From the human T2T-CHM13v2.0 reference genome, Homo sapiens: a stretch of DNA of 64,000 bases. Numbering within the stretch: the stretch's first letter is position 1; every line of letters begins with the position of its first letter. The stretch is from NCBI RefSeq assembly GCF_009914755.1, contig NC_060947.1; one strand, 5' to 3'. The notes under the pieces are model-generated. The model did no database searches. It saw only the letters and a list, made by a program, of their open reading frames with translations, and was not told where the DNA came from. Shown piece by piece: positions 602-59,272 of the stretch. Both the position numbers and the translations under genes were made by a program.

Positions 602-954
602 CAGGGGTCTCCAACTCCCAGGACAAAGACCCGTACCTGTCTGTGGCCTGTTAGGAACTGGGCCGCACAGCAGGAGGTGAGCAGCGGGCATGTGAGCACC
701 TGAGTTCTGCCTCCTGTCAGATGAGTGGTGGCATTAGATTCTCATAGGATCACAAATCCTATTGAAAATTGCACATGCAAAAAATCTAGGTTGCACGCTC
801 CTTTTGAGAATCTAACTAATGCCTGATGATCTGAGGTGGAATAGTTTCATCCTGTAAGCATCCCTCGCCCCACACCTCCCACCCCGGCCCCTTCTATGGA
901 AAAATTGTCTTCCACAAAACCAGTCCCTGGTGCCCAAAAGGTTGGGGACTGCTG
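602..954 (+). mobile_element. MER1B (hAT-Charlie DNA transposon), full length
   Basis: Starts caggggtctccaac and ends ggttggggactgctg; perfect 8-bp TSD ACATATCT at 594-601 and 955-962. Confidence 0.95.
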
Positions 955-1029
955 ACATATCTCATATGTCAGCAGTCCCCAACCGGTCCTGGGGGTTGGG
1001 GACCTTTGTCATACAGGGCTATTGGTACA

Positions 1030-56084: not shown

Positions 56085-56960
<876 letters not shown>

Positions 56961-57553
56961 TCAAGCAGCATCCTCAACCCTGATGGCTTCCTGGGCTATC
57001 CCTGTGCCTCCTACAATGAGTTTTGGGAGGTAGGTTACCCCAGAAGCCTGAGGAAGATGTTGGTGGCCCTGTTTTGGGTGTTTTTGCATTCCTGTGGCTT
57101 AGAACAGAACAAAGAGATGTAACTCTGCAACGAATGCGAGGCGAATAGCTGTTTCCCTTGTCCAGCTGAAGGATGCCCCAAAATGGGGCACTATGCTGAC
57201 CAATTTAAGGGGAAAACCAGTGCCGTTGAACAAATATTTTTCCTCAACACAGGAGAGAGTGGTAACTTTACTAGTTGGAGATATAAGGTATCAGTCACAC
57301 TGTCTGGAAAAAAGAAAGTGAGTGGGTACATCAGGATTGCTTTGTATGGAAGTAATGGAAACTCAAAACAATATGAGATTTTCAAAGGATCCCTCAAACC
57401 AGATGCAAGTCACATGCATGATATTGATGTGGATCTCAATGTTGGAAAAATACAGAAAGTTAAGTTCCTCTGGAACAACCATGTGATAAATCTATTCTGG
57501 CCCAAACTGGGGGCTTCCCAAATCACAGTGCAAAGTGGTGAAGATGGGACTGA
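56961..57553 (+). pseudogene. PNLIPRP2: Semi-processed, 5'-truncated copy of pancreatic lipase-related protein 2 (end of the catalytic domain plus most of the C-terminal PLAT domain)
   Basis: 56961-57029 encodes SSILNPDGFLGYPCASYNEFWE. 57144-57553 encodes NSCFPCPAEGCPKMGHYADQFKGKTSAVEQIFFLNTGESGNFTSWRYKVSVTLSG...QSGEDGTE without introns. A 114-nt insert starting GTAGGT (57030-57143) holds an in-frame TAA at 57120. No signal peptide or catalytic triad. The symbol names the parent gene. Confidence 0.93.
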
Positions 57554-58670
57554 GTATGTATTTTTTATTGCATCTAAGTTTGGTTACTTATATTTACATA
57601 TTGATTTACCTGTCTATGCATTCATTCATCCAGTTACCCACCTACCCACCTACTCATCCATTCATCTACCCATTTATCCATTTCTCTACCCATTTATCCA
57701 TTTCTCTATCCTTTTTATCCTCTATACTTTTAACCACTTAGCCACTTACCCATTCACTTATTCCTCTACCCATCCACCCAGACATCTATCTCCTCATTCT
57801 TCTGGCCCTCCAGCCATTCTTTGATCTTCTCATCCATCCATTCATCTTTCCAGCTATTCATCTTAACTCTCCATCCATCCATCTGATTTACTGTGAAAAA
57901 CCAAACATCATTTTCCTTAGGCAAAATTCAACTTGGCAGGGGCAAGGCAATGAATGTAGGCACAGATTCAAGAAACAGGCAAATATGAATGACTGTTTTA
58001 TCTCAAACAATGAGGAAAACACCTGGGAAGCACGTAGGGGAAATCTCTGAGTTAATTCCAGTTTACGTGCAGTTACTAATGTAAACTGGTTTGTTTGGAG
58101 ACTATTGCATGAGAGGGATACACACTGTGTTGGGGATCTGGCTCATAGTGGCAAGCTTTTCCATTCTGAGGGAATAGAATCCTACTTGGTAGGCATGAGA
58201 GAGAACATAATTGTTTTTGAAATATGGAAAGAAAGAAGGACACCTCAAAAGAGGATAATTCAAAAATAATGGAATATTAGAGAATAAAGGAAACGTAAAT
58301 GTCGACTCTCAACTGCTCTCATTTTAAGATGAGGAAATAAGATTTGGAGAGTCAAATAACTTGTCTAAGGTCACATGGGGAATCTAAAGGGAAAAAATAT
58401 TGGACTTCAGAATGTTTTCAAAACTTACACCAAGACTTTGCTCCCCTGCTTGACTTAACTTTGCTGGCTGTAAAAGTGGCAATGATCCCAATTACTCAGT
58501 GTATTTTTGGAAGGATCAAATGTCACAGTTAGCATGCCATCACTTTGTATGCAGTAGACCGCCTTATCTGTGGGGGATGGGTGGTATTTTCCAAGACCCC
58601 AGTTGGATGCCTGAAACCTCAGATAGTACCAATTCTTATATATACTATTTTTTTTCCTAGTCATATATAC
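57554..58670 (+). other. Probable retained last intron of the lipase parent gene, with (CATC)n low complexity, a MIR and a truncated MER44
   Basis: Starts with the donor GTATGT exactly where lipase homology stops (GTE; the parent continues YNFC). (CATC)-rich 57620-57885, MIR ~58320-58420, MER44-like cagtagaccgccttatctgtgggggat...gcctgaaacctcagatagtacc at 58552-58670. Confidence 0.7.
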
Positions 58671-58754
58671 TATATGAATGGGAAATATAGTATGTGTATA
58701 GAATGGGAAAAATGTTTTGTAGTTTTCCAACTAAGTTTTGCCTTTTTGATAGTA

Positions 58755-59272
58755 CTTCTGTACACTGGTAATGAACAATTTAAAAATGAAATTACGAAAA
58801 GTAATTACATTTACAGTACTATCAAAAAGAATTAAATATATAGGAATTACTTTGACAAAAAAGGCAAAACTTAGTTGGAAAACTACAAAACATTTTTAAA
58901 AAGATATTAAAGAAAATCTAAATAAAAAACACGACTATGTTCATAGATCAGAAGGCAAAATCTTTAAGATGGCAATACTCCCTCAAACTGATTTATAGAT
59001 TCAATAAAATCCCTATTAGAATCCCAGATGGCTTCTTTGTAGAAATTGATCAGCTGATTCAAATTCCATGGAATTGGTTGGTTTCCAGATTAACCAAATC
59101 AATTTTGAAAAATAAGAATAAAACTGGAGGATTCACATTTCCTCCTTTCAAAACTTACTTCAAAGCAACAATAATCAGGACAGTATGGTACCACTGTAAG
59201 GACAGAGATATAGATCAATGAAATAGAATTGAGACTTAAGACATAAACCCATACATCTTGGTCAATTGATTT
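58755..59272 (+). mobile_element. Old L1M ORF2 fragment, post-RT region
   Basis: LYTGNEQFKNEI and LIYRFNKIPIRIPDGFFVEIDQLI...FKTYFKATIIRTVWY peptides. Confidence 0.88.

What the first reader, a model, noticed from the sequence alone, without database searches (positions are those of the whole stretch)
58630..58897. Right junction of the lipase insert is a patchwork of inverted templated snippets (Pol theta-like break-repair scar)
Seen in sequence: 58708-58747 (40 nt) is a perfect reverse complement of 58858-58897 in the downstream L1 flank. 58743-58756 (14 nt) is a perfect reverse complement of 58815-58828, and the two snippets overlap by TTTTT microhomology. ~58681-58704 is an imperfect inverted copy of ~58632-58657 on the insert side, and gaatgggaaa is repeated. 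No poly(A) tail or TSD is visible. Established: short insertions templated from break flanks are typical of polymerase theta-mediated end joining or microhomology-mediated template switching. Inference: the cDNA was captured during double-strand-break repair (endonuclease-independent or RNA-templated insertion) rather than by classical L1 TPRT.
Basis: partly seen in the sequence, partly recalled or inferred. Interest (0 to 1): 0.8.

Follow-up and report, generated by a model that had tools for sequence, protein, structure and literature searches.

The report
Template-switch scar beside captured lipase cDNA
A fragment copied from a partly spliced pancreatic-lipase (PNLIPRP2) transcript sits in a gap in an old L1 repeat, and its right end is sealed by 68 bases stitched from short copies of nearby sequence, which is the mark of break repair rather than ordinary retrotransposition.

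Summary
Window 58708-58747 is a perfect inverted copy of 58858-58897 (40 nt). 58742-58756 is a perfect inverted copy of 58815-58829 (15 nt, not 14), and the two share CTTTTT. GAATGGGAAA occurs twice. The PNLIPRP2-derived insert (56959-58688; source chr10:117529201-117537702) has three introns removed and one retained. It has no poly(A) and no target-site duplication, and it replaces about 1.83 kb of an old L1. All 68 filler bases (58689-58756) can be assigned to templates, joined through 3-8 nt microhomologies.

New here: the 12 nt next to the insert end, plus 4 nt of overlap, match exactly a minisatellite in the PNLIPRP2 intron upstream of the captured exons. The chance of such a match is about 8e-4. 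A gapped local template also fits those bases.

Best reading (0.55): one event in which a break was repaired by non-classical capture of transcript-derived DNA, primed after snap-back synthesis. This is a class 2 templated-insertion or endonuclease-independent type of event, and the enzyme cannot be named from sequence.

Main rival (0.25): an ordinary retrocopy that was later truncated by a deletion. The arms are perfect although the insert is about 8% diverged (p about 0.02-0.04), and that favours a younger scar. Primate orthologues would decide. New member of a known kind.

The parts
56577..56960 (+). Left flank: old L1, endonuclease-domain part of ORF2. It ends at about ORF2p residue 129-130.
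   Evidence: Window 56853-56942 aligns to human L1 ORF2p residues 95-124. 39 other genomic L1 matches end at window 56916-56955. Aligned with 10 L1 relatives, the L1 reading CTGAC runs to 56960.
56959..56960 (.). Left junction: the 2 nt AC are shared by the L1 reading (CTGAC) and the chr10 reading (ACTCAAG). There is no filler.
56959..57149 (+). Insert block 1: the 3' part of a PNLIPRP2 exon, 5'-truncated inside the exon, plus a 113-nt extension to a downstream GTAATG donor.
   Evidence: Window 56959-57137 matches chr10:117529201-117529379 with 11 mismatches in 179. The junction has the length expected for that donor joined to the next exon, but 6 of the 12 nt around it differ.
57150..57556 (+). 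Insert blocks 2-4: three further exons with precise intron removal. They encode the lipase C-terminus and the PLAT domain.
   Evidence: Window 57150-57275, 57274-57385 and 57378 onward match chr10:117531102-227, 117532680-791 and 117536420 onward. The two exon-exon joins are exact. Pfam Lipase and PLAT hits. PDB 2oxe, PNLIPRP2, E 1.6e-80.
57557..58688 (+). Insert block 5: 1132 nt of retained intron following the last captured exon. It ends at an arbitrary, non-A-rich point (...GGGAAATAT).
   Evidence: Colinear with chr10 up to 117537702. Non-CpG divergence is 88 of 1084 sites, 8.1%. There is no poly(A) signal or A-run at the end.
58689..58700 (+). Filler snippet 1: AGTATGTGTATA. With ATAT (58685-58688) it forms a 16-nt exact sense match to the 33-bp-spaced minisatellite in the PNLIPRP2 intron upstream of block 1. 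Alternative reading: an inverted copy of the ancestral insert end.
   Evidence: Nine copies at chr10:117527972-117528279. The 16-mer occurs 109 times in 3.117 Gb and the 12-mer 1177 times. The alternatives are scored.
58701..58710 (+). Filler snippet 2: GAATGGGAAA, an exact direct copy of insert 58676-58685.
   Evidence: D1. chr10 reads GAATAGGAAA at this place.
58708..58747 (-). Filler snippet 3: a perfect inverted copy of L1 58858-58897. It overlaps snippet 2 by AAA.
58742..58756 (-). Filler snippet 4: a perfect inverted copy of L1 58815-58829. It overlaps snippet 3 by CTTTTT. Its last 8 nt (58749-58756) also match forward L1 at 6 of 8 positions, so up to 8 nt are junction microhomology.
58757..59262 (+). 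Right flank: the same old L1, resuming at about ORF2p residue 740. It holds the two template stretches (58815-58829 and 58858-58897) and the 28 nt skipped between them (58830-58857).
   Evidence: Window 58792 onward aligns to ORF2p residue 753 onward. It is 71-76% identical to 39 other L1 copies. L1 alignments begin at window 58746-58753.

Best explanation
One event is proposed, dated by divergence to very roughly 30-45 million years ago (calibration recalled). A break or gap in an old L1 inside a COL4A6 intron was repaired by capture of DNA copied from an incompletely processed PNLIPRP2 transcript. This was not classical L1 target-primed insertion.

Inferred path, following one growing 3' end on the bottom strand:
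1. The L1 end at about 58749-58757 folded back on itself, pairing over the AGTACT region (6-8 nt), and copied up to 58829.
2. It slipped across the AAAAAG repeat, skipping 28 nt, and copied 58864-58897.
3. It paired through AAA with the transcript or its cDNA and copied GAATGGGAAA.
4. It copied 12 nt from the upstream intron minisatellite, entering through TATA and leaving through ATAT.
5. It then ran processively for 1.73 kb to 56959, where it was joined to the left L1 end through AC.

Steps 3 and 4 have a second reading. The insert's own DNA end may have snapped back and been copied with 2 indels and 1 substitution, after which the two extended ends annealed through AAAAA.

Shown: the templates, the overlaps, the RNA origin of the insert, the lack of poly(A) and of a target-site duplication, and the missing L1 segment.

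Inferred: the order of the steps, that it was a single event, and the enzyme. L1 ORF2p acting without its endonuclease suits the long copy. A Pol theta-like activity suits the snap-back steps.
For: - RNA origin. Three introns are removed, two of the joins exactly, while the donor locus on chr10 is intact.
- Nuclear-type template. There are 1132 nt of retained intron and an alternative donor, and the 3' end is not at an A-rich site.
- No A-run of 6 or more and no direct repeat of 8 or more between the flanks.
- L1 ORF2p residues about 130-739 (about 1.83 kb) are absent between colinear, same-strand flanks.
- All 68 filler nt are covered by four templated pieces with overlaps of 3-8 nt.
- The filler 16-mer matches the PNLIPRP2 minisatellite 0.92-1.23 kb upstream of the insert's 5' end, in sense. 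There are at most 86 other places genome-wide, which gives about 8e-4 for a 30-kb region. About 29.4 kb of the 30-kb span around the source was scanned (a 628-nt stretch between two loci was not), and it shows nothing else of 12 nt or more.
- Under the rival local reading, the filler agrees with the ancestral states (T at 58660, C at 58666; 5 of 6 family copies each) and not with the present X states. Either way the scar is old.
- The features match the printed criteria for class 2 templated insertions and for non-classical L1 insertions (passages read).
Against: - The 49-nt inverted copy has 0 mismatches, although the insert and its source differ at 8.1% of non-CpG sites. P(0 in 49) is 0.017-0.029 at d = 0.08-0.07. 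Empirically, 49 of 1267 windows of 49 nt in the insert-versus-source alignment are clean, and 10 of 464 AT-rich ones. This favours a scar younger than the insert.
- The minisatellite match is low-complexity TA/TG sequence, and a local gapped template reaches the same alignment score of 16.
- A T|AAAA site lies 9-11 nt left of the 5' junction, as classical insertion would leave. However, 17.8% of positions in this L1 flank have such a site.
- Whether the minisatellite unit existed at the time of the event is unknown.
- Whether the 1.83-kb L1 loss happened in the same event is untested.
Confidence: 0.55

Rival explanations
1. Two events. An ordinary L1-mediated, 5'-truncated, semi-processed PNLIPRP2 retrocopy inserted at a TTTT/A site in the old L1. 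A later deletion of more than 2 kb removed its 3' part, the poly(A) tail, the right target-site duplication and 1.83 kb of L1. The deletion joint was sealed by snap-back or template-switch synthesis.
For: - The arms are perfect (0 of 49) against 8.1% insert-source divergence.
- The GAATGGGAAA copy is identical to the present X version and not to the chr10 version.
- A T|AAAA site lies at the distance expected for a 9-11-nt target-site duplication.
- Deletion scars with inverted local templates are a known outcome of end joining (abstract starts seen).
Against: - The 12-nt snippet has no exact local template on the present X sequence. The best is 9 nt, of which 4 are overlap.
- The 10 kb downstream of the source, which would have been the deleted part, holds no match of 10 nt or more.
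- The 16-nt minisatellite match would be coincidence (about 8e-4).
- Under the local-template reading the filler carries ancestral, not present-day, X states.
- At 58680, G is probably ancestral, though the alignment with the family copies there is weak, so the GAATGGGAAA argument carries no weight.
- The T|AAAA site is uninformative, because 17.8% of positions have one.
Confidence: 0.25
2. The junction is old, but the perfect hairpin is younger. The inverted L1 copy was created or re-homogenised later by a short replication template switch between the arms.
For: It would reconcile the perfect arms with the signs that the rest of the filler is old. Template switching that creates and maintains perfect hairpins is described for human and other genomes (PMC5453318 and PMC8794818; abstract starts only).
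Against: - The inverted copy sits exactly between the transcript-derived filler and the start of forward L1, with microhomology at both ends (AAA, and up to 8 nt). A later, unrelated event would not be expected to respect these boundaries.
- No trace of an earlier junction sequence remains.
Confidence: 0.1
3. The inverted piece is a 5' inversion of the old L1 itself, produced by twin priming when the L1 inserted.
For: An inverted L1 segment lies directly 5' of forward L1 sequence.
Against: - The forward arms differ from the 60%-or-more majority of 25 L1 relatives at 13 columns (10 + 3), and the inverted copy shares every one of these differences. The arms are only 65-73% (median) identical to the relatives. 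The copy was therefore made long after the L1 had decayed.
- It duplicates downstream sequence rather than continuing the element upstream.
Confidence: 0.01

Closest known systems
Class 2 templated sequence insertions (Onozawa and Aplan; review PMC5110952, passages read)
   Same: A patch copied from RNA of a distant locus, which may include spliced exons or intronic sequence. No target-site duplication, no poly(A) tract and no cryptic poly(A) signal. Microhomology and deletion at the junctions.
   Different: This one is fixed and old rather than polymorphic or experimental. It is long (1.73 kb) and goes with a 1.83-kb target loss. One junction carries a 68-nt fully templated filler, where the review speaks of microdeletion, microhomology and non-templated additions.
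Non-classical (endonuclease-independent) L1 insertions, 21 human loci (Sen et al. 2007, PMC1920257, passages read)
   Same: 3' truncation, no target-site duplication, no poly(A), target deletions, short filler DNA at the ends, and end microhomology.
   Different: The template here is a cellular pre-mRNA, not L1 RNA. The fourth criterion of that paper, deviation from the L1 endonuclease site, is not clearly met at the left flank (T|AAAA is present). No empty site has been verified.
Pol theta-mediated / synthesis-dependent microhomology-mediated end joining (PMC4912351, PMC2943611, PMC5728401; abstract starts only)
   Same: Snap-back extension of a 3' end on its own strand, repeated dissociation and re-annealing at short microhomologies, and inverted and direct copies of the flanks in the joint.
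   Different: The snippets are long (34-40 nt) and perfect. The templates lie 60-140 nt from the end. The joint is attached to a 1.7-kb RNA-derived insert. Dependence on Pol theta cannot be tested from sequence.
Semi-processed retrocopies made by classical L1 TPRT (recalled)
   Same: A 5'-truncated copy of a transcript that retains an intron.
   Different: Poly(A) and the target-site duplication, which define that route, are absent here.

Membership tests
Class 2 templated sequence insertion | The insert is templated from a distant locus that remains intact | tested here: met
   chr10:117529201-117537702 is present in the same genome, and there is no other copy.
Class 2 templated sequence insertion | RNA-derived | tested here: met
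   Three introns are absent, two of the joins exact.
Class 2 templated sequence insertion | No target-site duplication, poly(A) tract or cryptic poly(A) signal | tested here: met
   No shared repeat of 8 nt or more between the flanks and no A-run of 6 or more. No AATAAA or ATTAAA in the last 40 nt (read). A later loss of these features cannot be excluded.
Class 2 templated sequence insertion | End-joining features at the junctions (microhomology, deletion) | tested here: met
   AC at the left junction and overlaps of 3-8 nt at the right. About 1.83 kb of L1 is missing. The timing of that loss was not tested.
Class 2 templated sequence insertion | A pre-insertion (empty) allele is known | not testable with these tools
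   No primate or population data are held.
Classical L1 TPRT retrocopy | 3' poly(A) tail | tested here: not met
   The insert ends ...GGGAAATAT inside an intron.
Classical L1 TPRT retrocopy | Target-site duplication | tested here: not met
Classical L1 TPRT retrocopy | Insertion at a TTTT/A site | tested here: inconclusive
   T|AAAA lies at 56949|56950, 9-11 nt left of the junction, but 17.8% of positions in this flank qualify.
Pol theta-type end-joining scar | Filler templated from the break flanks, with microhomology at each switch | tested here: met
Pol theta-type end-joining scar | Dependence on POLQ | not testable with these tools
   This needs genetics or biochemistry.
L1 twin-priming 5' inversion | The inverted part is as old as the element and continues it upstream | tested here: not met
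   13 private differences are shared by both arms, and the inverted piece duplicates downstream sequence.
Replication template-switch mutation | The ancestral sequence shows replacement by the reverse complement of a neighbouring stretch | not testable with these tools
   No ancestral or orthologous sequence is available.

The most novel reading that the evidence does not exclude
The right junction may be a complete natural record of how RNA-templated break repair was primed in the primate germline. On this reading a single DNA 3' end snapped back twice on its own strand. It then made three short jumps on one nascent PNLIPRP2 pre-mRNA, one of them onto a still-unspliced intron minisatellite about 2.7 kb away along the RNA, before copying 1.73 kb processively. 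That would show that the RNA itself, and not a ready-made cDNA, was at the break when the joint was formed.
Probability: 0.3. Interest if true: 0.6.

Novelty: new member of a known kind. Interest (0 to 1): 0.42.

Why it matters
Fixed insertions of transcript-derived DNA that lack L1 hallmarks are the natural counterpart of the RNA-derived patches seen at experimental breaks. In most of them the junctions say little. Here every filler base can be traced to a template, so the order of priming steps can be read off. One snippet may also place the pre-mRNA itself at the break. The locus gives a concrete test case for comparison across primate genomes. It has no evident bearing on COL4A6, because it lies deep in an intron on the antisense strand.

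Tried and rejected
- The filler as a block copied from elsewhere: a 20-nt stretch of it, allowing 2 mismatches, was found exactly only at its own place. The 27 two-mismatch hits compare with 20 for the reversed control.
- Template in the part of the source transcript that a later deletion would have removed: no match of 10 nt or more in the 10 kb downstream of the source, nor in the 10 kb upstream of the minisatellite locus.
- L1 twin priming: rejected.
- Polarising the G/A difference at 58680 with six copies of the interspersed repeat that ends the insert: the family alignment is too weak beyond 58670 to trust.
- Mapping both L1 flanks on one long L1 copy: only 1 of 6 fetched copies reached far enough (62% identity; it gave about 2.0 kb missing). 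Residue numbers of solved ORF2p structures were used instead.
- The L1 endonuclease-like site at the left flank: not informative.
- Print search: among the 10 papers listed (of 111 holding at least two of PNLIPRP2, pseudogene, COL4A6), none holds both PNLIPRP2 and COL4A6.
- No orthologous primate sequence could be reached with any tool.

Full report
**1. The observation**

The repeat finder returns a 40-nt perfect inverted repeat (58708-58747 / 58858-58897). The two left arms overlap by CTTTTT. A 10-nt direct repeat, GAATGGGAAA, lies at 58676 and 58701.

- The longest inverted repeat in 500 first-order Markov surrogates of 58400-59100 was 20 nt, with a mean of 10.7.
- The 64-kb window holds only two other perfect inverted repeats of 20 nt or more with arm starts within 400 nt: a (TA)n run and a palindrome at 940-985.
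- Folded as single-stranded DNA, the bottom strand of 58660-58910 forms one interrupted hairpin at -57.2 kcal/mol. Shuffles give -15.2 +/- 2.9, and 0 of 200 fold as well.

**2. What lies around it**

A search of the window's own genome places the insert on chr10 in four colinear blocks:

| Window | chr10 | Mismatches |
|---|---|---|
| 56959-57137 | 117529201-117529379 | 11 of 179 |
| 57150-57275 | 117531102-117531227 | 6 of 126 |
| 57274-57385 | 117532680-117532791 | 5 of 112 |
| 57378-58688 | 117536420-117537702 | 105 in 1316 columns |

- The translated exons hit the Pfam Lipase and PLAT families. They also hit solved structures of pancreatic lipase-related protein 2 (2oxe, E 1.6e-80).
- Two exon-exon joins are exact.
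- The first join fits use of a GTAATG donor 113 nt downstream of the usual one, although 6 of the 12 nt around it differ.
- After the last captured exon the copy runs 1132 nt into the next intron.
- The 5' end lies inside an exon.
- The 3' end (...GGGAAATAT at 58688) is not followed by anything A-rich in chr10.

The template was therefore an incompletely and aberrantly spliced transcript.

**3. The host**

- The left flank, 56853-56942, aligns to human L1 ORF2p residues 95-124.
- The right flank, from 58792, aligns to residue 753 onward.
- Both are on the + strand. Residues about 130-739, some 1.83 kb of L1, are therefore missing where the 1.73-kb insert and the filler now sit.
- The one long L1 copy that reached far enough gave about 2.0 kb.
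- At the left junction the L1 reading (CTGAC) and the chr10 reading (ACTCAAG) share AC, and there is no filler.
- Forward L1 alignments on the right begin at 58746-58753.
- 58749-58756 matches the 25 relatives at 6 of 8 positions, whereas 58708-58748 does not (median 33%).

**4. Which arm is the copy, and when was it made**

The right-hand arms are colinear with 25 other L1 copies. They differ from the 60%-or-more majority at 13 columns (10 + 3). The inverted copy shares all 13. It was therefore copied from this decayed L1 long after the L1 had inserted, and an L1 5' inversion by twin priming is excluded.

The inverted copy reads as 58897 back to 58858 and then 58829 back to 58815. The 28 nt in between are skipped across the repeated AAAAAG. 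This is what one snap-back of the bottom-strand 3' end with one slippage would produce.

**5. The remaining 22 nt of filler (58689-58710)**

GAATGGGAAA is an exact copy of the insert end.

- Together with the preceding ATAT, the snippet is a 16-nt exact match, in sense, to nine units of a minisatellite in the intron just upstream of the first captured exon. The units are spaced 33 bp apart. Tandem Repeats Finder reports a period of 66.
- These units lie at chr10:117527972-117528279, which is 0.92-1.23 kb before the insert's 5' end.
- The 16-mer occurs 109 times in the 3.117-Gb genome. Merging tandem neighbours in the 100 listed rows gives 79 places, with at most 9 more unlisted.
- The chance that one of the at most 86 other places falls in a 30-kb region is about 8e-4.
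- For the 12-mer alone (1177 hits) the chance is about 0.01.
- In the 30-kb span around the source (about 29.4 kb scanned; a 628-nt stretch between two loci was not), nothing else of 12 nt or more matches. The 10 kb downstream has no match of 10 nt or more.

If this match is real, a piece of the same pre-mRNA that is not part of the insert was copied into the joint. That ties the joint to the insertion event.

**6. The competing local reading of those 22 nt**

The source intron ends in a quasi-palindrome. The filler 58685-58710 also aligns to the reverse complement of the chr10 version of 58650-58675. That alignment has two small indels and one substitution, and it reaches the same score of 16.

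Six other copies of the interspersed repeat that ends the insert show that T at 58660 and C at 58666 are ancestral (5 of 6 each), and that the X copy has since changed to G and T. Under the local reading the filler pairs with the ancestral states. The scar would then predate two X-lineage substitutions in a 26-nt template. Either reading makes this part of the scar old.

**7. Evidence the other way**

- The retained intron differs from its source at 88 of 1084 non-CpG sites (8.1%).
- K2P for the block is 0.093, with 82 transitions and 29 transversions.
- If the 49-nt inverted copy were equally old, the chance of no mismatch is 0.017-0.029.
- Empirically, 49 of 1267 windows of 49 nt in the insert-versus-source alignment are clean, and 10 of 464 AT-rich ones.
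- The arms thus look younger than the insert, at about the 2-4% level.
- A T|AAAA site lies 9-11 nt left of the 5' junction, as classical insertion would leave. However, 17.8% of positions in that flank have one.

**8. Weighing the readings**

I put 0.55 on a single non-classical capture event. This rests on the nuclear-type template, the absence of TPRT hallmarks, a filler that is fully templated, the minisatellite snippet or alternatively the ancestral-state agreement, and the fit to printed criteria.

I put 0.25 on a classical retrocopy that was later truncated by a deletion whose joint carries the scar. I put 0.10 on an old joint whose hairpin was created or homogenised later by replication template switching. 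The rest goes to other readings.

The enzyme cannot be read from the sequence. Snap-back with repeated re-priming is described for Pol theta and for synthesis-dependent end joining (PMC4912351, PMC2943611, PMC5728401; listing and abstract starts only). Pol theta can reverse transcribe (PMC8195485; abstract start). A 1.7-kb copy fits L1 ORF2p acting without its endonuclease better, which is my inference.

**9. Comparison with the known**

The locus meets the features given for class 2 templated sequence insertions: no target-site duplication, no poly(A), and end-joining features. The review itself likens these to an endonuclease-independent event that uses non-L1 RNA (PMC5110952, passages read).

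It meets three of the four criteria used for non-classical L1 insertions: 3' truncation, no target-site duplication and no poly(A). Deviation from the endonuclease site is unclear (PMC1920257, passages read). The empty allele that both papers rely on is not available here.

Among the 10 papers listed by my search (of 111 holding at least two of the terms PNLIPRP2, pseudogene, COL4A6), none holds both PNLIPRP2 and COL4A6. The RefSeq table supplied with the finding lists no pseudogene here. Retrocopy databases and supplements were not seen.

**10. Verdict**

This is a genuine, well-preserved break-repair-type junction on an RNA-derived insert. It is a new member of a known kind. Its value is forensic rather than conceptual. 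The dating in years and the 25-30 kb size used for the source gene rest on recalled figures.

Noticed in passing
window 940-985: A near-perfect palindrome: 21-nt arms (GGTTGGGGACTGCTGACATAT and its complement) around a 3-4-nt centre. It is the only other non-simple perfect inverted repeat of 20 nt or more in the window.
   Followed up: no
L003 55-680 (chr10:117527755-117528380): A TA/TG-rich minisatellite of about 600 bp in a PNLIPRP2 intron. Tandem Repeats Finder gives period 66 and 9.5 copies, and the 16-mer recurs every 33 bp.
   Followed up: partly
L002 about 2745-2783 (chr10 source of window 58650-58688): The source intron holds a native 10-bp inverted repeat, TTTCCTATTC ... GAATAGGAAA. 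It is perfect on chr10 but degraded by two changes in the X copy.
   Followed up: partly
window 57135-57149: A cluster of 6 mismatches in the 12 nt around the first exon-exon join of the insert, far above the 5-8% seen elsewhere. It may be a mis-read splice join or local damage at a template jump.
   Followed up: no
window 57123-57824: A 233-codon stretch without stops. Its first 145 codons are the lipase C-terminus and PLAT domain, still open after about 5-8% divergence. This is probably chance.
   Followed up: no
window 56215-56575: An Alu-like element with a long (AAT)n tail interrupts the same old L1 just upstream of the left flank. I identified it by eye, and the stretch 56174-56572 is masked in the hub's table.
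   Followed up: no
window 58546-58670: The last ~125 nt of the insert belong to an interspersed repeat with many genomic copies, 77-89% identical in the six fetched. No tool named the family. The homology of the other copies stops at 58665-58670, about 20 nt before the insert end.
   Followed up: partly
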